From Candidatus Zixiibacteriota bacterium (lineage in GTDB: Bacteria; Zixibacteria; MSB-5A5; UM-FILTER-46-8), in contig WJIJ01000086.1 of assembly GCA_014730345.1 (NCBI GenBank), positions 1 through 58,446 of the forward strand: a stretch of DNA of 58,446 nucleotides. The letters run 5' to 3'. Both the position numbers and the translations under genes were made by a program. The notes below the pieces were generated by a model. The model was not told the DNA's origin. It saw only the letters and a list, made by a program, of their open reading frames with translations, and ran no database searches. Positions 605-33,843 of the stretch are shown in pieces (position 1 is the stretch's first letter; every line of letters starts with the position of its first letter).

Positions 605-2473
605 ATGAAATCCAAAACAACACTTATGATTGGCGCACTACTACTTGCAATCTGCTTCGGCGCAACAGCTTATGCCGGTGATTACACGATCGTCGACACC
701 GGGCAGGACAACTGCTACGATGAAAACAGCTGGATTGTTGAACCCGGAGTCGGGGAACCATTCTATGGACAGGATGCCCAGTACGACGGTTTCCAGCCGT
801 CTTACCGGGATAACGGCGATGGCACCGTTACCGACGTCAATACCGGTTTAATGTGGCAGAAAACCCCCTGCTTAGATCAAAAATTCGAGTTTTTCGAAGC
901 GTTGAACGGCGCGGATACATTCAGTCTCGCCGGTTATGATGATTGGCGTTTGCCGACTATCAAAGAGCTTTACTCGTTAATTAATTTCAATGGAAGTATC
1001 TACAATCTCGTACCTTATATCGATACGAATTATTTCGATTTCGCTTATCCAGATACCACACAGGGATGGCGTATAATCGATGCCCAGTATTGGTCAAGTA
1101 CTCAATACGTGGGCACTACTATGAATAATGAACCTACAGTATTCGGCGTTAATTTCGCCGACGGACGTATCAAGGGGTATCCGCGGGACAATGGACCCGG
1201 CGGGCAAACGATGACCGAATTCGTGCGCTATGTCCGCGGAAATATCAACTATGGCGAAAATAATTACGTTGACAACGGCAACGGCACAGTTATCGACCTC
1301 GCTACCGGGTTGATATGGCAAAAGACTGATGACGGCACCCCGCGCAACTGGGAGGATGCTCTGGCATACGCGGAAGGTTTGGAGCTTGCCGGGCATGATG
1401 ACTGGCGTTTGCCCAATGCCAAGGAGCTTCAGAGCATAGTTGACTACACCCACGCCCCCGATGCCACCGATCCCGAACTGGTTGGACCTGCTATCGACCC
1501 CGTTTTCGATATTACCAACACAGGCAGTCAGCAGGATCCTGACTATGGTTACTACTGGAGCGGTACCACGCACCTCGATGGTCCATACCCTGATTTCGCC
1601 TGCTACCAGACATTCGGCTGCGCCTGGGGGTGGATGGAGATTCCGCCTAATTCCGGCAATTATGTTTACATGAATGTTCACGGCGCCGGCGCGCAGAGAA
1701 GCGACCCTAAATCCGGCGATCCTTCTAACTGGCCCCATGGCAACGGCCCCCAGGGAGATGAAGTGCGCATCTATAACTATGTACGTTGCGTCCGTGGAGG
1801 TAATGTAACCACTATCAATATGATTCCCGATTCTTCCCCGGTTACCGTACCCCAGGGCGGTTCCTTCAACTATACCGGTATGTTGTTGAACAATACACAG
1901 CAATCGCAAACCGGTGATTTGTGGATTATGCTGGAATTGCCCAACGGCGCCGAGTATGGACCGCTCTATTTAATTGATGATATCTCAATGAACTCCGCGC
2001 AGAATATTATAGTGGATGATATCGAGCAATATGTTCCCACGTTCGCCCCCATGGGAACCTATAAGTACATCTCCTACTGCGGGATTTATCCCGATGTAAA
2101 GGTTGATTCTTCGGGTTTCGAATTTACAGTTATCTCCGGCGATGATTCCGGCGCGGATTCATGGGTACTGTCCGGCTGGTCCGGGGAAACTGGCGGTGAA
2201 CAGTTTCCGCTTAAAACCAGCCTGGATGAAAACTATCCGAATCCGTTCAACGCCGGTACCGCCATCAGCTATTCATTGGCAAATGATGCCGATGTTTCGC
2301 TTGCAGTGTACAATATCATGGGACAGAAAGTAGATGTCCTCTTTGCTGGCCATCAACAGGCGGGAGAGTACAAATTGAACTGGGATGGTTCGCCATTTTC
2401 ATCGGGTATTTACTTCTACAAACTGACCGCCGATGATAAATCTTTCACCCGACAGATGACCTTGTTGAAGTAA
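605..2473 (+). CDS. Secreted tandem DUF1566 (Lcl C-terminal) domain protein with MIPD module and C-terminal sorting domain
   Basis: Signal peptide; two DNGDGTV.D..TGL.WQK...DDWRLP..KEL.S repeats; NYPNPFN...RQMTLLK tail; caggag RBS. Confidence 0.88.
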   Translation: MKSKTTLMIGALLLAICFGATAYAGDYTIVDTGQDNCYDENSWIVEPGVGEPFYGQDAQYDGFQPSYRDNGDGTVTDVNTGLMWQKTPCLDQKFEFFEALNGADTFSLAGYDDWRLPTIKELYSLINFNGSIYNLVPYIDTNYFDFAYPDTTQGWRIIDAQYWSSTQYVGTTMNNEPTVFGVNFADGRIKGYPRDNGPGGQTMTEFVRYVRGNINYGENNYVDNGNGTVIDLATGLIWQKTDDGTPRNWEDALAYAEGLELAGHDDWRLPNAKELQSIVDYTHAPDATDPELVGPAIDPVFDITNTGSQQDPDYGYYWSGTTHLDGPYPDFACYQTFGCAWGWMEIPPNSGNYVYMNVHGAGAQRSDPKSGDPSNWPHGNGPQGDEVRIYNYVRCVRGGNVTTINMIPDSSPVTVPQGGSFNYTGMLLNNTQQSQTGDLWIMLELPNGAEYGPLYLIDDISMNSAQNIIVDDIEQYVPTFAPMGTYKYISYCGIYPDVKVDSSGFEFTVISGDDSGADSWVLSGWSGETGGEQFPLKTSLDENYPNPFNAGTAISYSLANDADVSLAVYNIMGQKVDVLFAGHQQAGEYKLNWDGSPFSSGIYFYKLTADDKSFTRQMTLLK

Positions 2474-5748: not shown

Positions 5749-5906
5749 TGTTGATTTACAAAAAATAGGCGTCGTATCCTCGAACGTGACGAAATATTTT
5801 TTAAGAAAACGCGACCGCAAATTGCTATTCCCTTCATTTGAGGAAACCTGCCGCGCAGTTTAATTCGCAAACCAAGCTCTGGATTCTTTGCTATTAAATG
5901 GCAAAC

Positions 5907-5936
5907 AAAAAAGGCTGTCTCGATGACAGCCTTTTT
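5907..5936. terminator. Bidirectional Rho-independent terminator between convergent genes
   Basis: aaaaaggctgtc-tcgat-gacagccttttt, with A and T runs on either side. Confidence 0.85.
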
Positions 5937-5956
5937 CGTTAAATCTGCATAAACTT

Positions 5957-6844
5957 TTAATCCCGGGCTTCGCTCAACTTGTTTACCACTTTTATTTCGA
6001 TAGGGATGGTGAAACGGGAGCCGTATTTATTCTTGGCCTGGAATGTTACCGATTTGCCCATCTTGCCCAATCCAAAAGCCTCGGTATCTACGGTAAACGC
6101 TACTTCAGTGGACTCATCCGGTTTTAGAACTTTTTTATCGATATCAACCTTGATTATATCGGGAAATGGATTGTCGACTATCTGTAATTCCGATTCGGTA
6201 GTGTCGATATTGGTAATGGTCGATTTAAGGACCTCTTTTTCCCCTATGAGAACTTCGTTGACATCGAACATGTCCGGTTCCACCTTGAAATCGCTGTTGG
6301 GAATACCCGCGATAGCCTTAACTGAAATCATTGGATTCTGGTTAGTGGAATCGTTGCAGGTAATCCGCATCTTTTTCATTATCGTCTTTTTATACCTTTT
6401 GGTATGAAAAGTAAAGTCGATAAAATCATGTTCGCCTGGCGGAATAACTATCCCGCGTCTTTTCGTCGTCGTGCATCCTCACGTAGGTTTGATGTTAATT
6501 ATGGTGAGGGTGTCGGTTCCGGTATTGGATACCTTGAAAAGATGGGTTACATTGGTATGTTGCGGAACATTGCCGAAATCGAAAATAGTGTATTCAAGGG
6601 TTATTTTCGAATCGTTCAGGGGAGCATCCGCTTGTTGGGGCGGTCTGCGCCTGATGTTTTTCGGATTTGTTCCCGTGGGAGCGGGTACATATTCTACCGG
6701 CCGTCCGTCTTCGTTGCGTTTCGGCCCCCAATACTGCTTATCATCTTTATTAGAATCGGTATCCGGTGTAAATTGACTTTGAGCCGGCGTGAAAAGAATA
6801 AGGCCGGTTATAGCTGAGAATAACAATATTTTTAGTATTTTCAT
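5957..6844 (-). CDS. Exported DUF1573-domain protein with in-frame TGA, probable selenoprotein (T-U-G-C, Sec at codon 122)
   Basis: Track ORFs 6479..6850 and 5957..6379 are in one frame with only TGA 6481-6479 between them. Read-through gives INIKPT-U-GCTTTKRRGIVIPPGEHDFIDFTFHTKRYKKTIMKKMRITCND, matching the DUF1573 CGC motif. AGGAG 9 nt before ATG 6844; signal peptide. Confidence 0.8.
6439..6456 (-). promoter_or_regulatory. Candidate bacterial SECIS hairpin
   Basis: mRNA +23..+40 after UGA: GCGGGAU-AGUU-AUUCCGC, a 7-bp stem whose loop has G in second position. Confidence 0.55.
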
Positions 6845-7008
6845 AAACAAGAACTCCTGATCCTATATTGCATGCAAAATAATGATAGAATCGCAAAGGT
6901 CAAGTATTTTCCCTTGTTTGCGGTAAATCTTTTGGGCTTCAATCCCCCGGATGGGGGGATTGTAACCCTAATATATGAATTTTCGGAATATTTGTTCCAT
7001 ATATTAAT

Positions 7009-8390: not shown

Positions 8391-11300
8391 ATGGCCCAAA
8401 AATTAACCGTAGTGCTCTTGGCATTACTCCTCGCGGCAGGTTTTAGCGCGTCTGCCTTCGCCGGAGATATTGCCAGTGGTTTGGATAATTATATTATCCA
8501 GAACAACCTGCAGGAGGAGTTTACTCCTGTGATCATCGTCATGGATCAAAGAGTCGATACCAGGGCGATGAATGATGAGTTTGACGCTAACAACACCCCG
8601 CTTGCCGAACGTCATGCTTTAATCATGACCGCTCTGCAGGAAACCGCGGACAGAACCCAGATTCCGGTTGTTCGCAGAATTGAACAGCTTAAATCGGAAG
8701 GGCTGGTTTCTGATTACAGCCAACTCTGGATTTCAAACATTATATGCATGAGCGCGAAATATTCCGCCATCCAGGAAATCGCCTCCATGACTGCCGTCGG
8801 CAGGATTTACTATGATGCAGAGATGGAATTAATTGCTCCGGTCGATGAACCGAAGCCCGGTTCCGGAGGAGATCTGACTTCAGTCGAGCAGGGATTAATC
8901 GCCATCAACGCCAACGATGTATGGGCGATGGGTATAACCGGCTCCGGTACCCTGGTCAGCAGTTTGGATACCGGCGTGGACGGTAACCATCCCGCATTGT
9001 ATGATCGCTGGAGAGGGCATGACTCCCGCTACCAGAACAATCCCGAATGGGCCTGGCATGATCCCCTTACCGGAACTAATTTCCCGTTCGATGATGGTTA
9101 CCATGGAACCCATACGATGGGAACGGTATGCGGCGCGGATAATAGCGGCGGCGATACGGTTGGAGTTGCAGTAGATGCCGAATGGATTTCCGCCGGCGTA
9201 GTTGACCGCGGCGGCGACCTGCCTACCCGTATGCAACGTTATCTGGTAGCTTTCCAGTGGACAGCCGATCCCGACGGTAATCCCAATACTATGTGGGATG
9301 TTCCTTGTGTATCTTCCAATTCCTGGGGACATTATCCGGGGAGTATGCCCGGCGGCGATTGCGATGACTGGTACTGGGACGCCCTGGACAATCTCGAAGC
9401 TATGGGGTGTCTTGTAGTCTTAGCGGCCGGAAATGAAGGTACCCTCGGGTTGCGCAATCCGGGAGTAAGGGCTACTGATGATTATAACAGTTTCGCTATT
9501 GGAGCGGTGGATGGAAACACCACCGGCTGGCCCATAGCCTCCTTTTCAGCCCGCGGCCCCTCTTACTGCACCCCTTCCGGTGACCCGGCTATAAAGCCCG
9601 AAGTTTGCGCCCCGGGCGTGGACGTTAACTCCTGTTATCCCGGCGGAAGCTACACCACTTTGAGTGGTACTTCCATGGCTACCCCCCATGTAGCAGGTGT
9701 GGTCGCCCTTATCAAGCAGGCTAATCCCAATCTTACCACCGAAATGGTCAAGCAGATATTGATGGATACTGCTTACGACTTGGGTTCCTCCGGCGAGGAC
9801 AATACCTATGGTTGGGGAATGATTGACGCTTACGAAGCCGTTATGGTAGCGCTCAGCTATTTGCAGGGCTATGGCGTTATCGAAGGTCAGGTTACCGATG
9901 CTTTCTCCGGCGATGGGTTGGAAGCTACAGTAACAATTACCAACCGCCAGCCGCCGATCGTTGCCCAGTGCAACTCCTCGGGTTATTATTCAATGCTCGT
10001 GCCGGCAGACACTGCCTGGAACCTGCAGGCTGAATATCCAGACTACAGCCCTGGCTACGCCACCGTTACCGTTACCGAAGATGACACCGTAACCCAGAAC
10101 TTCCAGCTCAATCCTCCGCCGGTCGCTATTGATATGATACCGGATGAATATCCGATTTACCTGCATCCGGGTGAAAGCTTTACCTATACCGGCGTGCTTA
10201 CCAACCAGACCAGTATGCAGATATACGGCGATGTATGGCTTATGCTGGATGTGCCCGGTATTGGAATGTACGGTCCTCTTCAGCTTTACCAGCACGTACC
10301 TCTCGCTCCCGGCCAGACCATTACCGTGCCTGGAATTTCCCAGTACGTTCCCACATTCGCTCCTATAGGCACCTATGAGTATATTGCCATTGCCGGAATG
10401 TATCCCAACTATGAGCTGGCGCGCACTTCGTTTGACTTTACGGTTCTGCCCGAAGGCGGAGCCCCCGCCGAAGTATGTATCCTCTGCGCCGACTATACTG
10501 ACAATTGGCATGGCGCCCGCGATTTACTGCTTGATAATCCCAACGTATTAAGCGTTGATTTTATCGATGTACAAAACTCAACGCCTTCCCTTAATGATCT
10601 TCTGGCATACAATGTAGTTCTGGTATGGTCTAATTACCAATTCGCGGACGCGACCGCGCTTGGCAACGTGCTTGCAGACTTTGTGGAAGTCGGCGGCGGC
10701 GTGGTAACCTGTGAATTCGCCCATTACGGCGGATGGGCTCTCGGCGGAAGATACATGACCGATTACTCGCCTATGGGCGCCGGCAATACCGGATACGGCG
10801 ATGCCAATATCGTAATCGATGACCCCAACCATCCTATAATGATCGGTGTGAACAGCGGAAGCGAATATTACAACTTCAACGTTCCCCTTGCCGGTAATAA
10901 TCCGCAACTGCTCTGCCATTATGATAACGGTTACAACGGAACTATCGTGAATGGCGATGTGGTTCGCTGTGTGGCGCTGAACAATTACTTCGGCGACCAG
11001 CATGCCTCCTGGACCGGTGATATCGGCGCCATGATGGTCAATGCGGTAGTTTATTCCGCCGCTAACAGTTTCTCCTTAGCGTTCCCGTCTCCGGAAGGTT
11101 ACCTTGACGCTTATGCCGCCGAGGATGAAAACGTGGTAAGCGCCACCGTCGTTAATAATTCCATGGCCGCTACCGAAGTTATCGGAATGGCTGGACGCGG
11201 CGGTGCCGGTGAACTTCCAATAGAGTACGGTTTGAACGATGCTTATCCTAATCCGTTCAACGCTTCTGCCAAGATAGTGATCGCCCTGCCGGAAGCTTCA

Positions 11301-11483
11301 GTTGTAAATCTCGACATTTATAACCTTTCCGGCCAGAAGGTCGCTACTTTGATTGACGGCAAGATGGAAGCCGGTTACCATGATGTAACCTGGGATGCTT
11401 CCGAATACTCCAGCGGAATTTATTTCTACAGGATGAACGCCGGAGAATTCTCCGCTACCAAGAGAATGACCCTCTTGAAGTAA
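8391..11483 (+). CDS. Secreted multidomain S8 subtilisin-like serine peptidase (bacillopeptidase F-like) with MIPD module and C-terminal sorting domain
   Basis: Catalytic triad SLDTGVD / YHGTHTMG / GTSMATPHVAG; prodomain; carboxypeptidase-regulatory-like EGQVTDA domain; AYPNPFN...KRMTLLK; aaggagg RBS. Confidence 0.93.
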   Translation: MAQKLTVVLLALLLAAGFSASAFAGDIASGLDNYIIQNNLQEEFTPVIIVMDQRVDTRAMNDEFDANNTPLAERHALIMTALQETADRTQIPVVRRIEQLKSEGLVSDYSQLWISNIICMSAKYSAIQEIASMTAVGRIYYDAEMELIAPVDEPKPGSGGDLTSVEQGLIAINANDVWAMGITGSGTLVSSLDTGVDGNHPALYDRWRGHDSRYQNNPEWAWHDPLTGTNFPFDDGYHGTHTMGTVCGADNSGGDTVGVAVDAEWISAGVVDRGGDLPTRMQRYLVAFQWTADPDGNPNTMWDVPCVSSNSWGHYPGSMPGGDCDDWYWDALDNLEAMGCLVVLAAGNEGTLGLRNPGVRATDDYNSFAIGAVDGNTTGWPIASFSARGPSYCTPSGDPAIKPEVCAPGVDVNSCYPGGSYTTLSGTSMATPHVAGVVALIKQANPNLTTEMVKQILMDTAYDLGSSGEDNTYGWGMIDAYEAVMVALSYLQGYGVIEGQVTDAFSGDGLEATVTITNRQPPIVAQCNSSGYYSMLVPADTAWNLQAEYPDYSPGYATVTVTEDDTVTQNFQLNPPPVAIDMIPDEYPIYLHPGESFTYTGVLTNQTSMQIYGDVWLMLDVPGIGMYGPLQLYQHVPLAPGQTITVPGISQYVPTFAPIGTYEYIAIAGMYPNYELARTSFDFTVLPEGGAPAEVCILCADYTDNWHGARDLLLDNPNVLSVDFIDVQNSTPSLNDLLAYNVVLVWSNYQFADATALGNVLADFVEVGGGVVTCEFAHYGGWALGGRYMTDYSPMGAGNTGYGDANIVIDDPNHPIMIGVNSGSEYYNFNVPLAGNNPQLLCHYDNGYNGTIVNGDVVRCVALNNYFGDQHASWTGDIGAMMVNAVVYSAANSFSLAFPSPEGYLDAYAAEDENVVSATVVNNSMAATEVIGMAGRGGAGELPIEYGLNDAYPNPFNASAKIVIALPEASVVNLDIYNLSGQKVATLIDGKMEAGYHDVTWDASEYSSGIYFYRMNAGEFSATKRMTLLK

Positions 11484-13906: not shown

Positions 13907-15946
13907 ATGGCAACCGGTAAATCTATGTTCGGGGACCTTTTTTATTCCGGTCCGGACGAGGAGATTCTCGCGGCTCCCGAGGTTAATGAAAATTACGAGA
14001 CCAATGTTAGCCATTTATATGTAATCGGCGACCTGACCGGGGTGCCGCTGTTAAAAAACGCGGTTAATATGGGGCAGGAATTAATTGAGAAGATTGGCGA
14101 TGAGCTTAAAGCTGAAGAGGTTGATGAAGATACATATCACCTTTTAATCGTAGGCGCAGGCGGGGCGGGGTTAGCCGCGGGGCTTGCCGCCCAGGAGAAG
14201 GGATTGAAATATATTGTGCTCGAACAGAAAAAACCGGGCAACACGATTAATAACTTCTTCAAGGGTAAGGAAATCTACACCGAGCCGAAAAATATGCCCA
14301 ATAAATCGAAACTCTGGGTGCGGGATTCCCGGAAGGAAGAACTCCTTGGGCATTGGGAAAAGATAATCGATGACGCCGATTTGAATATCAAAACCGGCGA
14401 CCAGATGAAGGTTACCGGGATACGCAGGCAAAACGATGGATTTATCGTCGAAACGTTGAAATCCGAATATCGCGCCAACAGGGTAGTACTGGCCATGGGA
14501 CGTTCGGGTAATCCCCGGATGCTCAGAGTTCCCGGCGAAGGGCTTGATAAGGTACATCATGTTCTCGTTGATCCCGAAGAATATACCGGGGAGAAAATCG
14601 CGGTGGTGGGAGCGGGCGATTCGGCTTTGGAAGCGGTAATAGCGTTAGCGCCCCATAACGACGTTTGCCTGGTAATACGTTCCGGGGAAATCACCAAAGC
14701 CCAGAAGGATAATAGAGACAAAGTCATGCAGTTGGTCGATTCGGGGAAGGTGGAGATCTTTGCCAATTCCAATGCCAAGGAAATCCGCCCCTATGAGATA
14801 GTAATTGATGTGGACGGTGAAGAGCGGATTATAGAAAACGACCATGTTTTTAGCCTCATTGGCGCTATCCCTCCCGATGGGTTTTTAAAGAAGATGGGTA
14901 TACGGAAACTGGGTGATTGGAGCTTCAAAAAGGTGTTATTTCTGGCGGGGATGACCGCGCTGGTGTTTTTTATCTATGCATGGAAAGCTCAAAAATTCTG
15001 GATTTTCACCCCTGACAGCGCCCTTTACTCATGGACATCATGGCGTCCATCCATGTGGTTTGGTGTCCTCTACAGCATTGTTATTACCGGCTTTGGTATA
15101 AAAGCTATCTATCGTTATCGTAATGATTCATACCAGGTAAAAAGGTACATTGCGTTAATTCTATCTCAGGTCATTCTGTTCTGGCTTATCCCTGAGATAA
15201 TTTTTCAAACGCTTTACCCTGTACATGATGGCTGGCGGGCGTATGGGCTTTTCTACCCGGCTCCACTGTACGTATGGAATTTCTGGGCTCCAATGAACGC
15301 GCATATCTTCTGGTTCGCGTGGTCCATTTTAATCTCGGTAATAGGGATACCGATTGTAGCCAGGATATGGGGCAAAAAGTATTGCTCTTATGTATGCTCC
15401 TGCGGGGGACTCGCCGAAACCCTCGGCGATAAATACCGTGTTCTTTCCCCGAGGGGCCGGAGGGCGAGGGCATGGGAGAACCTGTTGACATATTTTATTC
15501 TCCTATGCGTTGGCACGGTTGTCCTTTTCGGGTTGCTGGATAAAAATTCGGGATGGTGGTCGTTCCAGGCGCTGGTTATCGATTTCGCCATTGCCGGGGT
15601 TATCGGGATAGCCTCTTATCCATTCTGGGGCAACCGTATCTGGTGCAGGTTCGGATGTCCGCTGGCAAAATTATATTACATATTCGCCAAGGATAATTCT
15701 GATGTGAAAATATCATCGGGACAGCACTGTATACGGTGCACTCTTTGCTCCAAGTACTGCCAGATGGGTATCCAGGTTATGGAGTTCGCCAAGCGCAACC
15801 AGGATTTCTCCAATAAGAACAGTTCTTGTATCCAGTGCGGAATCTGCATAACCGTGTGTCCGACCCGTAATCTCCAGCATGGCGATTGGTCGGAGGAGAA
15901 ATGGAAGGAAGAGATTGAAAAGGGACCTCCCATTAACGTAGTATAA
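13907..15946 (+). CDS. FAD/NAD(P)-binding TrxR/YpdA-like oxidoreductase fused to a NapH/YccM-like polytopic 4Fe-4S membrane domain
   Basis: IVGAGGAG and VVGAGDSA Rossmann motifs; several TM segments; CSYVCSCG and WCRFGCP motifs; CIRCTLCSKYC and CIQCGICITVCP ferredoxin motifs. Confidence 0.85.
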   Translation: MATGKSMFGDLFYSGPDEEILAAPEVNENYETNVSHLYVIGDLTGVPLLKNAVNMGQELIEKIGDELKAEEVDEDTYHLLIVGAGGAGLAAGLAAQEKGLKYIVLEQKKPGNTINNFFKGKEIYTEPKNMPNKSKLWVRDSRKEELLGHWEKIIDDADLNIKTGDQMKVTGIRRQNDGFIVETLKSEYRANRVVLAMGRSGNPRMLRVPGEGLDKVHHVLVDPEEYTGEKIAVVGAGDSALEAVIALAPHNDVCLVIRSGEITKAQKDNRDKVMQLVDSGKVEIFANSNAKEIRPYEIVIDVDGEERIIENDHVFSLIGAIPPDGFLKKMGIRKLGDWSFKKVLFLAGMTALVFFIYAWKAQKFWIFTPDSALYSWTSWRPSMWFGVLYSIVITGFGIKAIYRYRNDSYQVKRYIALILSQVILFWLIPEIIFQTLYPVHDGWRAYGLFYPAPLYVWNFWAPMNAHIFWFAWSILISVIGIPIVARIWGKKYCSYVCSCGGLAETLGDKYRVLSPRGRRARAWENLLTYFILLCVGTVVLFGLLDKNSGWWSFQALVIDFAIAGVIGIASYPFWGNRIWCRFGCPLAKLYYIFAKDNSDVKISSGQHCIRCTLCSKYCQMGIQVMEFAKRNQDFSNKNSSCIQCGICITVCPTRNLQHGDWSEEKWKEEIEKGPPINVV

Positions 15947-25665: not shown

Positions 25666-27483
25666 TTACTTTACCATAGTCATACGTTTTGTGAAAACTT
25701 TGCCTTCGGCATTGAGAGTATAGAAATAGATTCCGCTGGCATGTTTGGTGCCGTCCCAATCCACGAAGTGCTGACCGGCGTTGATATTGCCTTCAACCAG
25801 GGTTTCGACAAGCTGACCGGCAAGGTTGTAGATTTTTAAAGTTACAAAACCATCACGGGGAGCGTCGAACTCGATAACGGTCGACGAGTTGAATGGATTC
25901 GGATAATTAGTACCCAGCGAGTACTCGGTGGGCACCATTTCGTAATCCTGCTTTTCTACGGTTCCCCAGCCGTAAGCCTGCCAGGAATCGCCGTCGCCTG
26001 CAATCGGCGGGACAATTGTAAACTCGAATGAGGAAGAATCGAGCTTAACTGAAGGATAGATGCCGGCATACGAAATGTACTCATATACGCCTGAAGGGGC
26101 GCCGGCCGGTATGGTCTGGACCACATTGGGTACTGACAGCGATTGAAATGGCGCGAGAGGAACTCCGCCGATCTGGAGAGTCGGTCCATAATATGTTCCC
26201 CACGGGGCTTTGACCATTGTCCATACGCCGCCGGTGGTCTGGTTGCCGGTGTTGTTTATTAATGTTCCGGTAAAGGTGAACGAACCGCCGGGATTCACGG
26301 TAACCGGGGGATAATCCGGCACCATGTTTACCGTAACAGGGTTTGATGGATACCTGTTGATGGTAAAACTTTCGATGATATCGCCGCCTTTTTTAACGGA
26401 TTCGAAGTAGAGATTATTACCTTCAATGCTGATTTTGCTGATATGATGGCTCATGCTTGTTTTTACAACATTCGGATACCAGGGCCAGGGCGGGTAGAGC
26501 GGACCGCCGCCGCCGGCGGTGGTGATATGCTGGATTCCATTTACAACCGCCCGGGCGTAGAAATGGCAATGCCCCGCGAATATCATACAAACATCATACT
26601 GCTCGAGCAGGGGCTGAATATAATTCTGGATGTCTTCATTATTATCGTGTCCTCCGGCGGACCATCCGGGTTCATGGAAGGTGGCAAATTTCCACAGCTT
26701 ATCAGTCGATGATAAGTCATCGATTATCCATTGGTGCTGTGCCGAACCCGGGGAATAATCGGTGTACTCGTCAATTACCGTGAAATGAGCCGGACCGTAA
26801 TCGAATGACCAGTATCTTCCGCCGCTTTCATGGGGATAGGGAAGGTACTTGTCGAAACAGTTGCCGGGGGTATCATGGTTGCCGTAGGTCGACTGAAATG
26901 GCAGGGTAGAGAGCATTTCATTTATGCTTTGATAACCTGTACCGAGCAGATGGTCGTCCCATTCCGATTCGCTGTCACCGTCATTTACGAGGTCGCCAAC
27001 CGAAATTATAAATGTCTGGAAATCAGGATCGGAATTGACTGTGGTCATGACCCGCTGGCAGACTTCGTCATGGGTCCCGGGGAATGTACGGGAATCACCG
27101 TAGGCGATAAACTTCAGATTAAGCTCATTCTCATGGGCGGCGGACCTGAAAGACCCCGTTTTAACATCTCCGCCGGCGGTTACCCTGTAGAGATAACGGG
27201 TACCCGGGGAGAGGTTGTTTATGGTGTAGGTGTGCTGATGATCACTGCCATATTCGGCAGTAACTTCGTTGCCCATACCGTAACCGGTGTCGGTGCCCCA
27301 TTCAATGGTACAACTCATGGTTGAGTTTAACTGCCACATGATTTTCATGCTGGTATTATCGTTTTCATAGATGCTGTATGGCCTTTTGCGGAAATTCTGC
27401 GCTTCGGCGGAAGCGGCCAGGACCACGAACATCATGGCAACCAGCAGTGTACCGATCAATACTTTTCCTGCGATTCTGTTCAT
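25666..27483 (-). CDS. Secreted metallophosphoesterase (purple acid phosphatase-like, FN3 N-terminus) with MIPD module and C-terminal sorting domain
   Basis: YGDSR, VGDLV, YGNHD, FHEP, AGHCH calcineurin-like motifs; NYPNPFN...KRMTMVK. Confidence 0.88.
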   Translation of the reverse strand: MNRIAGKVLIGTLLVAMMFVVLAASAEAQNFRKRPYSIYENDNTSMKIMWQLNSTMSCTIEWGTDTGYGMGNEVTAEYGSDHQHTYTINNLSPGTRYLYRVTAGGDVKTGSFRSAAHENELNLKFIAYGDSRTFPGTHDEVCQRVMTTVNSDPDFQTFIISVGDLVNDGDSESEWDDHLLGTGYQSINEMLSTLPFQSTYGNHDTPGNCFDKYLPYPHESGGRYWSFDYGPAHFTVIDEYTDYSPGSAQHQWIIDDLSSTDKLWKFATFHEPGWSAGGHDNNEDIQNYIQPLLEQYDVCMIFAGHCHFYARAVVNGIQHITTAGGGGPLYPPWPWYPNVVKTSMSHHISKISIEGNNLYFESVKKGGDIIESFTINRYPSNPVTVNMVPDYPPVTVNPGGSFTFTGTLINNTGNQTTGGVWTMVKAPWGTYYGPTLQIGGVPLAPFQSLSVPNVVQTIPAGAPSGVYEYISYAGIYPSVKLDSSSFEFTIVPPIAGDGDSWQAYGWGTVEKQDYEMVPTEYSLGTNYPNPFNSSTVIEFDAPRDGFVTLKIYNLAGQLVETLVEGNINAGQHFVDWDGTKHASGIYFYTLNAEGKVFTKRMTMVK

Positions 27484-27525: not shown

Positions 27526-29652
27526 CTATTTCAACAACGACATTCTTTTGGTTACTGTCTTTTCGCCGTTGGAGAGCCTGTAGAAATACACGCCGCTGGC
27601 GTATTCAGAGGCATTCCAGGTTATATCGTGTTCTCCGGCCTCCATGAAACCATCAACAAGAGATTCAACCCTCTGGCCGAGGATATTATACACATCGAGG
27701 TCTACCTTGCCGGCCCTGTCAAGGCTGAATGCGATATTTGTGGCGGCATTGAACGGATTCGGGTAGTTTTTATCCAGGGCAAAACGCGCCGGCAGTGATT
27801 CACCGGAATCTCCCTCAAACCATCCATAAAGTTTCCACTGGTCGGCTGAACCGCCCAGGGGAGCGATAACATTGAAATTGAAATATGAGGAATCGTAAAT
27901 TGTGCTCGGGTAACGTCCGGCATAGGAGACATATCTATAAGTTCCCTCCGGCGCGAATACCGGCACATACTGGGTTACATTCGGTACGATGATAGTCTGG
28001 CCGGGAGACATGTAGATATTGTTGAACTGTTGAAGGGGACCGTAGCGGGTGCCGTCGGGAAGCTCCAGCATTATCCAAACGTGCCCCACAACCGGTTGCC
28101 CATTGGGATTCGCCAGTTTCCCGGTAAACTCAAAAGAACCGCCGCGAGCTACATCCACCGGCGCGGAATGCGGTATCATGGCGATATTGACCGGGATGAC
28201 CTCTCCCCATTCTATATTTAGAATAGGCCTCTGGCAATAATCCATCTCTTCCTCGGAAGCGAAACGGAACACGCCCTCGGTTCCGAGCGGCGATTGGTCT
28301 CTCAATATGAAACCGTTGTTCAGAGAAGGATTATCGAACCATTCGCGCACCGTGTTGGTTACATCCCATTTTATCCACTGGCTGGTAGCGGTGGACACGG
28401 AAAGGTTAGTAAACGATGACGGGTATTCACTCCGGTCGCTGTTCACCATATCACAGCCGGGAGTATCCCAGGGCAAATATGCGAATTTCGCGAATCCGTG
28501 GGTAGCCCAACCCGAACCGGATGGGGCTGTACTGCCGTAGAATTCGTATGGATTTCCATCCTCGCCATGGCCCTCGCCCCATTCCTTGTAAACTTCGAAA
28601 AGGGCAAGGGTTTTATCCGCCGATTGCGATTGTGCGCGCTCGGTGAAATAGAGGTTCAGTTCAGCTTTGTGTATTGCCGGTTCAGGCGGAGTTTCCGGCA
28701 GTTCGAATTTTATAAGGGCGCTCTTACGGTCATTGCCGCCGTCCTGGCCGCCAACCTCAAAACGGGTTTCCGCGCCGGTGTTGTTGTCCGGGTGAGATGC
28801 CCGCAGGAAGGTACCATAGGCGTCATCATAAGCGAATTCGCGATATGAATGCTGGTATGCCCATTCGCCGTCCTTCAGAATATGCCAGCATCTTATCATC
28901 TGCTGGGCGGCAAGAGCCGCGTCATCGTTGATACCGCCCGGGAAATAATCCTTGTAGTTATTATGGGAGAACGGGATGTCCAACAGCAACTCGAGGTACA
29001 TTAACCATCCGCTGACGTTTTCTCCGGTTATCCCCAACTCGATCCAGTTGGTTCCGGAAGCTATTGTATCCGCGGTGACCTGGGGCATTCCCGCCGCGTG
29101 GTACACTTCGACCCAGGTATCATACGGCCAGTAATAATCAGGAGTCCATGGGTACTCGCCCTCTTCCCACATCATAAAAATATCGCACCCGTATTCTATA
29201 AATCCATGAGAATTATTATCCTCGACCATGGCTACCGGCAGGAACGCGGTACTGTCATATATACCATGCCAGGGGACATCGCCATAGGTATGCGATGCCG
29301 CTCCCATCAGGAATACAATTTCACGCTGTTCGGCTTCATCAAACGGATAACTCACCCGGTGCCGCAATACTTCCACGTAGTGGTCTATCCAGAAAGCTTC
29401 ATGGGCTATTTCGGAGATTGGAGGATTATCGGTCCATCCAATGTCAGGGGACATGGATCCGCAATAAAGTTCATCGAGATGGCTTTCAATCATCTGCGCG
29501 AGTTCTGCTTCACCCTGGGCGTAGAGATGAGGTATCGCCCGCTGGCCGACCATCCAATGGTTGCGTATCCCCAGGGAATATGCAGTCGCCGTATAAAACA
29601 GGATAGTGATAATTATCACTAAGGAACATCTAAACAGGTAACTATTCTTCAT
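27526..29652 (-). CDS. Secreted zinc-dependent phospholipase C/nuclease-like protein with DNRLRE-like domain, MIPD module and C-terminal sorting domain
   Basis: GIRNH after the signal peptide, GSMSPD, AHE, GAASHTYGDVPWH; LRASHPDNNTG...KSALIKF..P....I.KAELNLY; NYPNPFN...KRMSLLK. Confidence 0.8.
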   Translation of the reverse strand: MKNSYLFRCSLVIIITILFYTATAYSLGIRNHWMVGQRAIPHLYAQGEAELAQMIESHLDELYCGSMSPDIGWTDNPPISEIAHEAFWIDHYVEVLRHRVSYPFDEAEQREIVFLMGAASHTYGDVPWHGIYDSTAFLPVAMVEDNNSHGFIEYGCDIFMMWEEGEYPWTPDYYWPYDTWVEVYHAAGMPQVTADTIASGTNWIELGITGENVSGWLMYLELLLDIPFSHNNYKDYFPGGINDDAALAAQQMIRCWHILKDGEWAYQHSYREFAYDDAYGTFLRASHPDNNTGAETRFEVGGQDGGNDRKSALIKFELPETPPEPAIHKAELNLYFTERAQSQSADKTLALFEVYKEWGEGHGEDGNPYEFYGSTAPSGSGWATHGFAKFAYLPWDTPGCDMVNSDRSEYPSSFTNLSVSTATSQWIKWDVTNTVREWFDNPSLNNGFILRDQSPLGTEGVFRFASEEEMDYCQRPILNIEWGEVIPVNIAMIPHSAPVDVARGGSFEFTGKLANPNGQPVVGHVWIMLELPDGTRYGPLQQFNNIYMSPGQTIIVPNVTQYVPVFAPEGTYRYVSYAGRYPSTIYDSSYFNFNVIAPLGGSADQWKLYGWFEGDSGESLPARFALDKNYPNPFNAATNIAFSLDRAGKVDLDVYNILGQRVESLVDGFMEAGEHDITWNASEYASGVYFYRLSNGEKTVTKRMSLLK

Positions 29653-29893: not shown

Positions 29894-31372
29894 CTATTTA
29901 ATCAACATCAACGGTTTGCAAATTTCGCCATCCGGGGATTTGAGTTTACAGAAATAAATTCCGGTGGCAAAATCTTCCGCATTCCAGCGGATTATATGTT
30001 CACCCGCTTTGAATCTACTATTAACCAGCGGCTCTATTTTTTGACCGCGGACATTATAAATATCAATATTGACCTCGCTTTCCCTTTTCAGGGTGAAAAC
30101 AATACTGGTTGTCGCATTAAAGGGATTGGGATAATTACTCAACATGGAATATTTAACCGGAAGTTTCTTTGGTTGTTGTTCATCAATACCGGTAGGTATG
30201 CCCGCTCCGCCGTAAGCGCCCATATCGCACAGGTCATCGCCGATACCGCCATCTTCGCAATCGATGAACGCGTCGAAAATAGTTGGATCCCCGGTATCTT
30301 TGCAAGGCGAATCCTCGGCCTGGCCGCATTCAATTGCCGACAGTCGGTAGTCATCGGTATCCGCGTCGCGGAACAGGGGATTGTCGGAGATATTTCCTGC
30401 ACCGCCGAAACCGCCTTCCACACAGCAATAGGTAACCCGCGGCGATTCGCCGAAAATCTGGGGATTATGGTTATCGGCTGTATTGGCCCAGAAAATATTA
30501 TTCTTAATCTCATGGTTGGGAGCGGCAATTACCAAACCTCCTCCATAGTCGGTAGCGTTATTGCCGTAAATTACGTTGTTGATGATTCTGACCATATCAT
30601 CGACGTAGTTAAGTATCACAATTCCACCGCCGCGTTCTCCCTCATTGCCTATAATACAGTTGTTGGCAATGATTATATCAGAATCAAAGGACATAATACC
30701 TCCGCCGGGGTAGTGAGTGTAATTATCCTTTATAGTGTTGCCTGAGATTCGTAAGCTGGATTCCATGATACACATAGCCGCCCCTATACCGACAGTGGCA
30801 TTCTCATAAATCATGTTATTTTCTATAACAGGCGTTGAGGCTTGAGCGGCGAAGATACCTCCGCCGGAATTGCCCTGGTTATGGCGGATGATATTGTTCA
30901 TAATTAACGCGTTCGTGTTCTCTCCCGCGCAGTATAAACCGCCTCCGCCGCCGCTCATGTAGTTATCCTCTATAATGTTATCGCGTATTACCGGACTCGA
31001 CGATGAGATATAAAAGCCCCCGCCGTATGGCGCGAAACCATTGCGTATTGTAAATCCTAATATCGTTGTTGTGCTATCCTCGCCGCTGTTTACGCTGAAC
31101 ACAGTCCCCGCGGAATCCCCATCTACAATTGTAGACCTTATATATGATGAATCGCGCTCAGTTAAAAATCTCGATGCGACGACTATATTTTTGCCGTTCA
31201 GGTTCAAATTTTCGGCGTATGTACCGGGTTCAACCAATATGGTATCCCCGTCATGGGCGGAGTTAATTCCATCCTGTATCAACGAGTAATCATCTGGGAC
31301 ATAAATAATTTCCGCTGAAGCATTTGGGGATAACAACAAGAGCATGAAAAGAAGGTATAGTGTTGATTTCAT
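29894..31372 (-). CDS. Secreted right-handed parallel beta-helix (pectin lyase-like) protein with C-terminal sorting domain
   Basis: IIYVPDDYSLIQDGINSAHDGDTILVEPGTY, repeated N...GGG beta-helix coils, DMGAYGG, NYPNPFN...KPLMLIK; no MIPD module. Confidence 0.85.
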   Translation of the reverse strand: MKSTLYLLFMLLLLSPNASAEIIYVPDDYSLIQDGINSAHDGDTILVEPGTYAENLNLNGKNIVVASRFLTERDSSYIRSTIVDGDSAGTVFSVNSGEDSTTTILGFTIRNGFAPYGGGFYISSSSPVIRDNIIEDNYMSGGGGGLYCAGENTNALIMNNIIRHNQGNSGGGIFAAQASTPVIENNMIYENATVGIGAAMCIMESSLRISGNTIKDNYTHYPGGGIMSFDSDIIIANNCIIGNEGERGGGIVILNYVDDMVRIINNVIYGNNATDYGGGLVIAAPNHEIKNNIFWANTADNHNPQIFGESPRVTYCCVEGGFGGAGNISDNPLFRDADTDDYRLSAIECGQAEDSPCKDTGDPTIFDAFIDCEDGGIGDDLCDMGAYGGAGIPTGIDEQQPKKLPVKYSMLSNYPNPFNATTSIVFTLKRESEVNIDIYNVRGQKIEPLVNSRFKAGEHIIRWNAEDFATGIYFCKLKSPDGEICKPLMLIK

Positions 31373-31625: not shown

Positions 31626-33209
31626 ATGTCTCAAAAGAATAGCTTGTTATTATTCATCATGCTGATGCTAATATCGGGTTTAGTCCCTCAATCGTGGGGC
31701 GTGACGGCTGACCACGGCAAGTTTCCGATTTTAAAGCAAGAATTTAAAACCGGGCCCGAAGTTACCCGGGCATGCCTTAGTTGTCACACAGAATCGGCAA
31801 AGCAGGTGCATAAAACTATACACTGGACCTGGGTATGCCCCAAATCGTTCGATCCCCAGCTGGGCAAATCAATCGTGGTCAATAATTTCTGTATTGCTCT
31901 TCCATCTAACGAGCCGAGGTGCACCAGTTGCCATGCCGGGTACGGATGGCGTGACAGTACCTTCGATTTCACATCCGAGGAGAATGTTGACTGTTTAGTA
32001 TGCCACGACCAGACCGGGGAATATCAAAAATTTCCCACCGGCGCGGGGCATCCCGCCTACGAGGTGAAAACATTCGGCGGCAAAAAGTATTTCCCCCCTG
32101 ATTTTAACAAGATAGCCCGGAACGTTGGTAAACCGAGCCGGCATAACTGTGGAGTATGCCATTTTTACGGCGGCGGGGGAGAGGGAGTTAAGCATGCCGA
32201 CCTCGATGAATCCCTTGAAAATCCGCGCAGGGAACTGGATGTTCACATGGCCCGCGACGGCCTCAATTATCAGTGTATCGATTGCCACCGGAGCAGAGAT
32301 CATGAGATCGCCGGGCGTTGTTATTCGGTGCCTGCCGCCGAAAGGAGGGAGTTCGCGCTTCCCAAAGATAGCGGACTGCGTATCGCCTGCGAATCCTGCC
32401 ACAGTGCCGCACCACATGAAAACAACGATAAATTAAACGACCACACCGACCGCGTCGCCTGCCAGACATGCCATATACCGTATGCCGCCCGCGAAAAAGC
32501 CACCAAGCATTGGTGGGACTGGTCGAAAGCAGGCGAGTTCGATGAAAATGGGGAAATGATTGTTAAAAAGGATGAACATGGAAATATAACCTATCATACC
32601 ATGAAAGGCGAATTCGCCTGGTCGAAAAATATGATTCCGGAATATTACTGGTTCAATGGCGGCGCGAACCATACCCTTGTTACCGATAAGGTTGACCCTG
32701 CCAAGCCGGTGGAGATCAACAGCCTTAAGGGCGATGAAGATGATCCGGATTCGAGGATATACCCGGTTAAAGTTCACAGGGGCAAGCAGGTTTACGACCC
32801 TGTGAATGAAACCCTGATAATACCCAAACTTTTCGGCCCTAAAGGCTCTGGAGCGTACTGGAAGGATTTCGATTGGGTTAAATCCGCCGAAAAGGGAATG
32901 GAATATGTCGGACTGCCTTTCAGCGGAGAGGTCGGTTTCGTGGAGACCGCTATGTACTGGCCTATTACCCACATGGTCGCTCCCAAGGAACACGCGCTAA
33001 AATGTAATGAATGTCACGCCGAAAACGGCAGGTTGGCCAGCCTGGGCGGTTTTTACATGCCCGGCCGTGATGATTTCGCCGCCCTGGATATAATTGGTTG
33101 GGTGATGGTTGGTTTAACTTTTCTCGGAGTTCTCGGACATGGTTTACTCAGGTTAACTTTTAACAACCGGCATGATGACATCGACGATTCGGAGGATAAG
33201 AATGAGTAA
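31626..33209 (+). CDS. otr: Octaheme c-type cytochrome, tetrathionate reductase (OTR) family
   Basis: Eight CxxCH motifs (CLSCH, CTSCH, CLVCH, CGVCH, CIDCH, CESCH, CQTCH, CNECH); GK...NNFC active-site segment; signal peptide and C-terminal TM anchor. Confidence 0.92.
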   Translation: MSQKNSLLLFIMLMLISGLVPQSWGVTADHGKFPILKQEFKTGPEVTRACLSCHTESAKQVHKTIHWTWVCPKSFDPQLGKSIVVNNFCIALPSNEPRCTSCHAGYGWRDSTFDFTSEENVDCLVCHDQTGEYQKFPTGAGHPAYEVKTFGGKKYFPPDFNKIARNVGKPSRHNCGVCHFYGGGGEGVKHADLDESLENPRRELDVHMARDGLNYQCIDCHRSRDHEIAGRCYSVPAAERREFALPKDSGLRIACESCHSAAPHENNDKLNDHTDRVACQTCHIPYAAREKATKHWWDWSKAGEFDENGEMIVKKDEHGNITYHTMKGEFAWSKNMIPEYYWFNGGANHTLVTDKVDPAKPVEINSLKGDEDDPDSRIYPVKVHRGKQVYDPVNETLIIPKLFGPKGSGAYWKDFDWVKSAEKGMEYVGLPFSGEVGFVETAMYWPITHMVAPKEHALKCNECHAENGRLASLGGFYMPGRDDFAALDIIGWVMVGLTFLGVLGHGLLRLTFNNRHDDIDDSEDKNE

Positions 33210-33843
33210 CAGGATTTATATATATAAAGGCTTCGAAAGGTTCTGGCATTGGGGTCAGGCTTTGCTGGTTATCCTGCTTTTATACACCGGTTTTGAAATT
33301 CATGGCACCCTCGGTTTCATTGGCTATGAACAGGCGGTGAATCTGCACAATAAACTGGTATGGGCGCTGTTGGTTCTGATCTCGTTCGCCATTTTCTGGC
33401 ACTTTACAACCGGGGAATGGAAACAGTATATCCCCACGGTGAAAAAGCTGAACCACATGATTCGTTACTATCTTGTGGGCATTTTCAGGAATGAACCTCA
33501 CCCAACCAGGAAAACAGAGCTTTCCAAGCTGAACCCATTGCAGAGAATTACCTACCTTTCCTTGAAGATACTCATCTTCCCGGTGCAGATAATTTCCGGA
33601 TTCGCCTATTATTATTACAATGAGTTGAGCGAGATAGGAATCAATATCAGCCTGGGAGCAATAGCTTTTGTGCATACCGCGGCGGCTTTCGTGATGCTCG
33701 TTTTCCTTATCGGGCATGTTTACCTGACCACCACCGGGCATACTGTCTTCTCTAATATCAAAGCTATGATCACCGGTTGGGAGGATTTGGAAGATGAGGA
33801 AAAGGAGCCTTATATACAGGAGGTTAAACAGGAAATTTCCTGA
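33202..33843 (+). CDS. Di-heme cytochrome b (PhsC/Ni-hydrogenase b-type), partner of OTR
   Basis: ERFWHW, GFEIHG, LH, LNPLQR..Y, HT..A......GHVY. Start ATG 33202 with ggagg RBS, overlapping the otr stop. Confidence 0.88.
   Translation: MSNRIYIYKGFERFWHWGQALLVILLLYTGFEIHGTLGFIGYEQAVNLHNKLVWALLVLISFAIFWHFTTGEWKQYIPTVKKLNHMIRYYLVGIFRNEPHPTRKTELSKLNPLQRITYLSLKILIFPVQIISGFAYYYYNELSEIGINISLGAIAFVHTAAAFVMLVFLIGHVYLTTTGHTVFSNIKAMITGWEDLEDEEKEPYIQEVKQEIS

What the first reader, a model, noticed from the sequence alone, without database searches (positions are those of the whole stretch)
5957..6844. Hidden exported selenoprotein: in-frame UGA at the Cys position of a DUF1573 CGC motif
Seen: the two minus-strand track ORFs (123 and 140 aa) are one reading frame broken only by TGA at 6481-6479. 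Read-through gives a 295-aa protein: signal peptide, Pro/charged linker, FDFGNV...HLFKVSNTGTDTLTIINIKPT-U-GCTT...IPPGEHDFIDFTFHT...KKMRITCND, then a second Ig-like domain. The 33 codons between TGA and the next ATG are stop-free and continue the domain. Known: DUF1573 carries a CGC motif at this point, and Sec is encoded by UGA, typically at Cys-homologous redox sites. Inference: a periplasmic or secreted U-G-C redox or metal-binding protein that standard gene callers would split.
Basis: partly seen in the sequence, partly recalled or inferred. Interest (0 to 1): 0.9.

Follow-up and report, generated by a model that had tools for sequence, protein, structure and literature searches.

The report
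Exported DUF1573 selenoprotein gene, split by callers
The two short neighbouring ORFs are one gene for an exported 295-residue protein whose in-frame UGA very probably encodes selenocysteine; the family was already catalogued by computation, so this is a well-supported new member, not a new kind.

Summary
Minus-strand ORFs 6850-6479 and 6379-5957 share one frame, broken only by TGA 6481-6479, which aligns with the first Cys of the invariant CGC motif of DUF1573.

The selenocysteine reading is strongly supported:
- The TGA is present in two further independent assemblies. One is about 9% diverged, with 44 synonymous against 14 non-synonymous codon changes.
- More than 100 homologous genes carry TGA at the same column, mainly in Zixibacteria and Ignavibacteria MAGs; many other homologs have Cys.
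- A 7-bp hairpin with an AGUU loop lies 22 nt after the UGA. It is kept in all 11 proteins of the window's subtype (33-45% identical), with one pair covarying at wobble positions (C-G, U-A, A-U). A Cys homolog encoding nearly the same peptide lacks it.
- TGA is a normal stop in 8 of 38 other window genes, and none has it internally.

DUF1573 "UGC" selenoproteins are already listed (OS_HP2, Zhang & Gladyshev 2007; NCBIfam NF041425; reviews of 2022 and 2026). The window protein scores below that model's cutoff (72.9 against 100 bits), so it belongs to an unannotated two-domain branch.

Not shown: Sec machinery in this genome, selenium in the protein, or biochemical function. Verdict: real, ordinary within its field, useful for annotation.

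The parts
6876..6903 (-). sigma-70-like promoter candidate (TTGACC, 16 nt, TATTTT)
   Evidence: This is a consensus match only (9 of 12); four such sites were found in the region against 2.7 expected, so the evidence is weak.
6854..6858 (-). Shine-Dalgarno AGGAG, 9 nt before ATG 6844
   Evidence: Read directly. The spacing favours ATG 6844 over TTG 6850 as the start.
5957..6844 (-). Full selenoprotein gene (295 codons plus TAA), with UGA at codon 122
   Evidence: for the frame. for selection: 44 synonymous against 14 non-synonymous codon changes versus strain X2 across the whole frame.
6776..6844 (-). Sec-type signal peptide MKILKILLFSAITGLILFTPAQS, with predicted cleavage before QF
   Evidence: Sequence features (inference; no predictor was run). 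The homolog model has an N-terminal helix followed by a disordered stretch.
6605..6775 (-). Pro- and charge-rich low-complexity linker (about residues 24-80)
   Evidence: The equivalent segment in the P0103 model has low pLDDT. It is the fastest-evolving part (17 synonymous to 8 non-synonymous changes together with the signal peptide).
6323..6604 (-). DUF1573 / HYDIN-VesB Ig-like domain (residues 81-174), containing the U-G-C site
   Evidence: PF07610 E = 6.8e-21, PF22544 E = 1.2e-21. NF041425 at 72.9 bits.
6479..6481 (-). In-frame UGA, the predicted selenocysteine codon 122
   Evidence: Kept in runs X1 and X2. Same column in all Sec-type homologs.
6473..6481 (-). U-G-C motif (UGA GGA UGC), replacing the family's invariant C-G-C
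   Evidence: C100 and C102 are invariant and G101 nearly invariant in 24 Cys-form homologs.
6439..6456 (-). SECIS-like hairpin GCGGGAU-AGUU-AUUCCGC; the stem starts 22 nt after the UGA and the loop 29 nt after
   Evidence: All 77 cells pair across 11 sequences. Pair 36-51 shows UA 6, CG 4, AU 1. RNAalifold predicts the same helix. The Cys control L100 lacks it.
5975..6289 (-). Second Ig-like beta-sandwich domain (about residues 186-290)
   Evidence: One search gives weak PapD-like and ZirS_C hits; the second sandwich in the homolog model has pLDDT above 95; this domain defines the subfamily.
5904..5940 (-). Intrinsic terminator (core stem-loop 5931-5913, then a T tract)
   Evidence: -24.1 kcal/mol, z = -5.5, none of 200 shuffles as stable. 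It lies 17 nt after the TAA stop, and no comparable signal lies between the TGA and the internal ATG.

Best explanation
Window 6844-5957 (minus strand) is one gene. The ribosome decodes UGA 6481-6479 as selenocysteine. A SelB-type factor carrying Sec-tRNA(Sec) would be recruited by the mRNA hairpin at 6456-6439, a 7-bp stem with an AGUU loop whose loop begins 29 nt after the UGA. The product is a 295-residue precursor with an N-terminal Sec-type signal peptide, so the mature protein should be exported to the periplasm. It has no T9SS sorting tail. It consists of a flexible Pro/charged linker and two Ig-like beta-sandwich domains. The first is a DUF1573 domain in which the family's invariant C-G-C becomes U-G-C, at the end of a beta strand. 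The two chalcogen side chains, two residues apart, most likely form a selenenylsulfide/selenol-thiol redox couple or a soft-metal binding site. Shown here: a single frame, the TGA/Cys alternation, selection across the frame, and the conserved covarying hairpin. Inferred: that SelB and the Sec machinery act here, that the protein is exported, and the chemistry of the site.
For: The TGA sits at the first Cys of CGC. It is kept in assemblies X1 (over 99% identical) and X2 (about 91%). Against X2 there are 44 synonymous and 14 non-synonymous codon changes, and 53 of 64 base changes are at third positions; the count is 5:0 in DUF1573 before U and 2:0 between U and the next ATG. All four short homologs looked up (five loci) have an in-frame TGA at the same column. 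A motif scan of GTDB genomes gave 82 matching stretches against about 2 expected (my estimate from the pattern's roughly 39 bits), all intact read-through DUF1573 ORFs. Nine more type-A genes came from metagenomes. The hairpin was not part of the search pattern, yet it is present with 7 of 7 pairs in all 11 type-A genes whose proteins are only 33-45% identical. Pair 36-51 shows three pair types at two wobble positions with no mismatch, while slid controls pair in 21-73% of cells. RNAalifold finds the same helix. Cys-form L100 encodes S-I-V-I-A-P-G with different codons and has only 4 of 7 pairs. TGA ends 8 of 38 other window genes and is internal to none. A terminator follows the full-length stop. 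The family is listed as a UGC selenoprotein and hits NF041425 'OS_HP2 family (seleno)protein'.
Against: No selA, selB, selD or tRNA-Sec is in the 58-kb window or in 60 related loci. The source genome is not among the GTDB representatives, so Sec-decoding capacity is unverified for this organism. I found no paper reporting Sec use in Zixibacteria or Ignavibacteria. In the window alone the hairpin is unremarkable: the 71-nt fold has z = -0.23, and 14% of coding positions have a 7-bp stem in the same range. Rfam gave no hit. No experimental proof exists for any member of the family. The biochemical function rests only on the motif and on neighbours seen in the other subtype.
Confidence: 0.85

Rival explanations
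1. The UGA is read through, but not as selenocysteine. The conserved hairpin would stimulate near-cognate suppression (Trp or Cys), or another recoding event, giving a full-length protein without selenium.
For: No Sec machinery could be shown for this genome. The comparative evidence demonstrates functional read-through and a conserved RNA element, not the identity of the inserted residue.
Against: The UGA always replaces a Cys of a redox-type CxC motif, which is the classic Sec signature. The family is catalogued as a selenoprotein family with a curated NCBIfam model. The hairpin position, with its loop 29 nt after the UGA and a G in the loop, fits the range of bacterial SECIS elements as I recall them from bSECISearch. 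TGA is otherwise a normal stop here.
Confidence: 0.06
2. Translation really stops at the TGA. The locus is a split or decaying gene that gives a 121-aa N-terminal fragment, and perhaps a separate 140-aa protein from ATG 6379.
For: This is what gene callers output. An ATG lies 33 codons downstream. Premature termination is also expected as a by-product when selenium is scarce.
Against: The split would cut a beta-sandwich domain in half. The 33 codons between the TGA and the ATG are open, homologous to DUF1573, and show only synonymous change. The TGA has persisted through about 9% nucleotide divergence and across genes only 33-45% identical. More than 100 homologs share the same 'defect' at the same codon. 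No terminator or ribosome-binding signal was found between the halves.
Confidence: 0.05
3. The TGA is a sequencing or assembly error for TGC or TGT.
For: It is a single-base difference from a Cys codon.
Against: Three independent assemblies (the window, X1 and X2) have TGA, and so do 98 homologous sites in unrelated assemblies.
Confidence: 0.01

Closest known systems
OS_HP2 / 'DUF1573 domain-containing protein' selenoprotein family (Zhang & Gladyshev 2007, PMC1976440; reviews PMC9312934 and PMC13188914; NCBIfam NF041425)
   Same: Same Pfam domain (PF07610) and the same U-G-C motif at the CGC position. Like this locus, the family was predicted from in-frame TGA plus a downstream stem-loop.
   Different: The window protein scores 72.9 bits against NF041425's 100-bit cutoff, and a type-B protein scores 82.7, so they lie outside the curated family. 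The original members came from deltaproteobacterial symbionts of Olavius. This branch has a second Ig-like domain and occurs mainly in Zixibacteria and Ignavibacteria MAGs. I could not retrieve the reference proteins CAB1076174.1 and MDJ0815992.1 for direct comparison.
Cys-form two-domain DUF1573 proteins (e.g. P0001, P0103, P0006, P0013)
   Same: Same architecture: signal peptide, linker, DUF1573, second Ig-like domain. They are 31-40% identical to the window protein and share the KP(T/G)-C-GCTTT context.
   Different: They have Cys (TGC or TGT) instead of Sec. The control examined at the DNA level (L100) lacks the hairpin.
'Type B' Sec-form DUF1573 proteins of Zixibacteria and Ignavibacteria (KPG-U-GCTKAP...AVGDS)
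   Same: Same column for the UGA and the same two-domain architecture; 28-33% identical to the window protein.
   Different: The RNA element differs: two hairpins, the second being GCUGUC-GGU-GACAGC at +40 to +54. They sit in a conserved neighbourhood with a thioredoxin-fold AhpC/TSA lipoprotein, YHS, a ThiI-like protein, SBF and MacB/FtsX genes, which the window gene lacks.
Bacterial SECIS elements (E. coli fdhF type; bSECISearch model)
   Same: A stem-loop a short distance downstream of the UGA, inside the coding region, with a G in the apical loop. The comparison rests on my recollection of the published model; the geometry was measured.
   Different: It is a short perfect 7-bp stem with an AGUU tetraloop and no bulged U. 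SelB binding is untested. No Rfam family matched.
PapD/ASH/HYDIN-type Ig-like domains; PDB 2qsv (P. gingivalis protein of unknown function)
   Same: Same beta-sandwich fold, by Foldseek on the P0103 model.
   Different: The resemblance is fold-level only (10-16% identity), with no shared active site and no functional information.

Membership tests
Pfam PF07610 (DUF1573) | Match to the family HMM above the gathering score | tested here: met
   74.6 bits against a cutoff of 26.1, residues 81-174, profile positions 1-93 of 98 (with Cys placed at the UGA).
Pfam PF07610 (DUF1573) | Conserved C-G-C-T motif after the fourth strand | tested here: met
   the window has U-G-C-T at the column where 24 homologs have invariant C..C.
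NCBIfam NF041425, OS_HP2 family (seleno)protein | Score at or above the curated cutoff (100 bits) | tested here: not met
   72.9 bits for the window protein and 82.7 bits for a type-B protein. It is the best NCBIfam hit but below the cutoff, so this is a relative outside the curated family.
Bacterial selenoprotein gene (general criteria) | In-frame UGA aligned with Cys in homologs, with conserved coding sequence on both sides | tested here: met
Bacterial selenoprotein gene (general criteria) | Independent homologs with UGA at the same column | tested here: met
   10 other type-A genes and 88 type-B sites.
Bacterial selenoprotein gene (general criteria) | SECIS stem-loop shortly downstream of the UGA, conserved in Sec forms | tested here: met
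   7 of 7 pairs in 11 of 11 sequences, with covariation at pair 36-51. It is absent in Cys control L100. SelB binding itself is untested.
Bacterial selenoprotein gene (general criteria) | selA, selB, selC (tRNA-Sec) and selD present in the same genome | not testable with these tools
   None is in the window or in 60 related loci. The source genome was not found in GTDB representatives, and whole genomes could not be scanned.
Bacterial selenoprotein gene (general criteria) | Selenium demonstrated in the protein | not testable with these tools
   This needs 75Se labelling or mass spectrometry. I found no experimental report for any DUF1573 selenoprotein.
Alternative genetic code (TGA as a sense codon, e.g. 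tables 4 or 25) | TGA not used as a stop, and frequent in-frame TGA in genes | tested here: not met
   8 of 38 genes end in TGA, and none of the 38 has an internal TGA.

The most novel reading that the evidence does not exclude
The two-domain, signal-peptide-bearing DUF1573 proteins of Zixibacteria, Ignavibacteria and related FCB-group bacteria form a large, so far unannotated clade of exported selenoproteins. The clade has two distinct SECIS types, tandem Sec/Cys paralogs and recent Sec/Cys switches. In type-B loci they may act as a periplasmic selenol/thiol relay or soft-metal(loid) handling module together with the adjacent TlpA/AhpC-like thioredoxin-fold lipoprotein. This would also document selenocysteine decoding in candidate phyla where I found no report of it.
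Probability: 0.4. Interest if true: 0.5.

Novelty: new member of a known kind. Interest (0 to 1): 0.35.

Why it matters
For annotation, the gene is mis-called as fragments in public collections. The same is likely for many relatives, because roughly half of the nearest protein clusters are truncated calls. The curated NCBIfam model would not rescue them, since they score below its cutoff.

For biology, the result adds more than 100 candidate exported selenoproteins in Zixibacteria, Ignavibacteria and related uncultured lineages. It also provides two compact, well-conserved SECIS-like elements that could be used to find further selenoprotein genes in these phyla. The function of the DUF1573 CGC/UGC site is still unknown, and natural Sec/Cys paralog pairs in one locus offer a convenient system to study it.

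It does not change what is known about how selenoproteins work.

Tried and rejected
- **Locus finder with the window protein on GTDB genomes:** 145 pattern matches, none confirmed. The source genome and close relatives are not in that collection.
- **Look-up of the 121-aa N-terminal product:** not on record.
- **Rfam and single-sequence folding:** no signal. The hairpin alone is not statistically unusual, so I based the SECIS claim on comparative data only.
- **tRNA-Sec scan of 60 related loci:** none found.
- **Screen for other selenoprotein genes in about 700 kb of flanking DNA:** motif filtering and tblastn through stop codons gave only antisense-frame artefacts. This provides no independent evidence of Sec decoding in these genomes.
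- **Synteny between the window and type-A or named loci:** none beyond shared T9SS tail domains. No taxonomic assignment of the window was possible, and type-A genes have no conserved operon.
- **PDB by sequence and by fold:** only generic Ig-like/PapD/ASH matches, with no functional lead.
- **Literature on Sec in Zixibacteria or Ignavibacteria:** nothing relevant.
- **Alternative genetic code:** rejected.
- **Sequencing error:** rejected.

Full report
**1. Observation**

On the minus strand, ORF 6850/6844-6479 and ORF 6379-5957 share a frame. The only stop between them is TGA at 6481-6479. Reading through gives 295 residues:
- a typical signal peptide (MKILKILLFSAITGLILFTPAQS|QF);
- a Pro/charged linker;
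- a DUF1573 / HYDIN-VesB Ig-like domain on residues 81-174 that spans the TGA (PF07610 74.6 bits, PF22544 77.2 bits);
- a second Ig-like domain.

The 33 codons between the TGA and the next ATG are open. An AGGAG lies 9 nt before ATG 6844. A strong intrinsic terminator follows the TAA of the long frame (-24.1 kcal/mol, z = -5.5). Among all TGA-joined ORF pairs in the window, this is the only one not explained as a shadow of a gene on the other strand. The public protein collection contains only the 140-aa fragment from this contig (P0003).

**2. Is the TGA real, and is it old?**

Three sequencing runs hold related sequence. A contig from X1 (over 99% identical) and contigs from X2 (a hypersaline-lake metagenome, about 91% identical) both keep TGA at 6479-6481.

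I compiled the listed X2 differences and classified them in the read-through frame. There are 44 synonymous and 14 non-synonymous codon changes, and 53 of 64 base changes are at third positions.

| Segment | Synonymous : non-synonymous |
|---|---|
| Signal peptide and linker (1-78) | 17 : 8 |
| DUF1573 before U (79-121) | 5 : 0 |
| U to next ATG (123-155) | 2 : 0 |
| After the ATG (156-295) | 20 : 6 |

So the TGA predates about 9% divergence, and the whole frame has stayed under purifying selection. That excludes an assembly error and a recent nonsense mutation.

TGA is otherwise a normal stop in this organism. It ends 8 of 38 other genes and occurs inside none of them, which excludes a recoded genetic code.

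**3. Sec/Cys alternation in homologs**

The word-index search found two Cys homologs whose KPTCGCT aligns with the window's KPT*GCT.

An exhaustive phmmer search with the 173 residues after the TGA gave 100 representative hits. About half are full-length proteins with CGC. The others are 100-200-aa proteins that begin just after the CGC region, as the window's own fragment does.

I looked up four of these short proteins on their contigs. All four (five loci) have an in-frame TGA exactly at the first Cys of CGC, preceded by a signal peptide and the first half of DUF1573.

A degenerate DNA pattern built from these sites was scanned over the GTDB species genomes. It returned 82 stretches, against roughly two expected; that expectation is my estimate from the pattern's roughly 39 bits. 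Every one is an intact read-through DUF1573 ORF. Most are in Candidatus Zixiibacteriota and Ignavibacteria MAGs. A few are in Calditrichota, GN15, FCB-group, Acidobacteriota and Syntrophobacterales bins, and some are on complete chromosomes. These are 'type B' (KPG-U-GCTKAP...AVGDS).

The window and L001 are 'type A' (KP[T/G]-U-GCT[TS][TS][KR]). A type-A pattern run on JGI metagenomes gave 12 hits, of which nine are genuine type-A Sec genes and three are chance hits. The window protein is 33-45% identical to the other type-A proteins and 28-33% identical to type B.

**4. SECIS-like element**

In the window alone the hairpin GCGGGAU-AGUU-AUUCCGC (6456-6439) is not significant. The 71-nt fold has z = -0.23, and 14% of coding positions have a 7-bp stem in the same range. 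The comparative evidence is what counts.
- The hairpin lies outside the search pattern, yet all 11 type-A genes have it at the same distance. The stem starts 22 nt after the UGA and the loop 29 nt after.
- 16 of its 18 nucleotides are invariant, and the Ile-Val-Ile codons are fixed as AUA GUU AUU.
- All 77 pair cells are standard pairs. Pair 36-51, which joins two codon third positions, shows UA 6, CG 4 and AU 1. Pair 39-48 shows AU 8 and GU 3.
- Slid controls pair in only 21-73% of cells, and no shuffle out of 500 reaches the observed covariation score. RNAalifold predicts the same helix.
- As a control, Cys-form L100 encodes S-I-V-I-A-P-G with AUC GUA AUA and forms only 4 of 7 pairs.

Type B has a different element. 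A variable first hairpin lies at about +14 to +39. A nearly invariant GCUGUC-GGU-GACAGC follows at +40 to +54, with synonymous sites fixed. Of 88 Sec sites, 85 have at least 5 of 6 pairs there, while the Cys-form genes in the same loci mostly have 2-4.

Two Cys paralogs adjacent to Sec paralogs, in L024 and L099, retain a near-intact hairpin. That suggests recent Sec/Cys switches.

**5. What the protein is**

AlphaFold2 on the closest eligible Cys homolog, P0103, with a 24-sequence alignment gave mean pLDDT 86.6. The model has an N-terminal helix (the signal peptide), a disordered linker and two beta-sandwiches. The CGC sits at the end of strand 91-98. C100 and C102 are invariant in the family, along with G87 and K138.

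Foldseek finds only PapD/ASH/HYDIN-type Ig-like domains and a P. gingivalis protein of unknown function, 2qsv. Sequence search of the PDB finds nothing.

The protein has a signal peptide but none of the T9SS tail domains seen in five other window proteins, so a periplasmic location is the best inference.

Type-B genes sit in a recurrent neighbourhood:
- an exported AhpC/TSA-Redoxin thioredoxin-fold protein immediately downstream, in 19 loci;
- a ThiI-like protein, in 17 loci;
- YHS-domain, SBF, DUF2284, ArsR-type and MacB/FtsX-ABC genes.

This points to envelope thiol redox or metal(loid) handling. Type-A genes, the window's included, are monocistronic with no conserved neighbours, so this functional hint transfers only by homology.

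**6. Comparison with what is known**

Two reviews list 'DUF1573 domain-containing protein, PF07610, motif UGC' among prokaryotic selenoprotein families, citing Zhang & Gladyshev 2007. That paper's Table 2 lists OS_HP2 with two Sec genes in the Olavius delta-1 and delta-4 symbionts, and states that all new families had SECIS-like stem-loops.

NCBIfam NF041425, 'OS_HP2 family (seleno)protein', is the window protein's best hit, at 72.9 bits against a cutoff of 100. The kind is therefore known, by computation only. The window gene belongs to a related branch that falls outside the curated model. That branch has two domains, is centred on the FCB group, and is much larger than the original report.

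I found no paper on Sec use in Zixibacteria or Ignavibacteria.

**7. What remains open**

- **Sec machinery.** None is in the window or in 60 related loci, the source genome is not in the GTDB representatives, and whole genomes could not be scanned.
- **Independent evidence of Sec decoding.** A screen of the flanking DNA for other selenoprotein genes found none.
- **Direct proof.** The inserted residue, the export and the chemistry of the U-G-C site are all inferred.

**8. Verdict**

The novelty is modest: this is a new member, within a large unannotated branch, of an already catalogued selenoprotein family. Interest is 0.35.

Noticed in passing
L008:1933-3874 (Zixibacteria MAG contig JAJRZO010000255.1): Three tandem Sec-type DUF1573 paralogs lie on one contig, with TGA at 1933, 2886 and 3872. 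Each has its own signal peptide and an open downstream frame.
   Followed up: partly
L024 minus strand around oriented position 3002; L099 minus strand around 3662: Cys-form paralogs lying next to Sec-form paralogs still carry the SECIS-like hairpin: 6 of 6 helix-2 pairs in L024 and 6 of 7 type-A pairs in L099. These look like recent Sec-to-Cys or Cys-to-Sec switches.
   Followed up: partly
L003, L004, L005 and 19 GTDB loci (e.g. L071:6131-6739, L042:4896-5951, L055:2876-3946): Type-B genes have a conserved neighbourhood: an SBF transporter, the DUF1573 Sec gene, an AhpC/TSA-Redoxin lipoprotein, a YHS-domain protein and a ThiI/NFACT-R_2 protein. ArsR, DUF2284 and MacB/FtsX-ABC genes occur in subsets. 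YHS is itself a known selenoprotein family, but I saw no TGA in these copies.
   Followed up: partly
L089:5951-6424 (minus strand): A further C-terminal DUF1573 fragment ORF lies directly upstream of the type-A Sec gene. It may be another TGA-split paralog whose motif my pattern missed.
   Followed up: no
window 6241-6260: Strain X2 shows four single-base indels here (+1, -1, -1, +1), net zero. This is either a short compensated frame shift in the second domain or an alignment artefact of a substitution cluster.
   Followed up: no
window 5904-5940 (minus strand): The consensus terminator scan missed a strong terminator. The likely reason is that A/U pairs extend the stem into the T tract. Direct folding shows it clearly.
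   Followed up: yes
window 605-2473, 8391-11483, 25666-27483, 27526-29652, 29894-31372: Five proteins carry T9SS C-terminal sorting domains (Por_Secre_tail): an Lcl-like protein, an S8 subtilase, a metallophosphatase, a Zn-phospholipase-C-like protein and a beta-helix protein. This marks an FCB-group-type organism. Their tails are 43-57% identical to tails in Zixibacteria and Ignavibacteria loci.
   Followed up: partly
window 13907-15946 and 31626-33843: There is an HdrA-like Pyr_redox/4Fe-4S fusion protein with no Sec codon, and a multihaem cytochrome c plus cytochrome b561 pair. Both suggest anaerobic or extracellular electron-transfer metabolism.
   Followed up: no
L001 and L095: Two type-A Sec genes share Hdr-like CCG-domain and 4Fe-4S neighbours (clusters 35 and 36). 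This is the only recurrent neighbourhood seen for type A.
   Followed up: no
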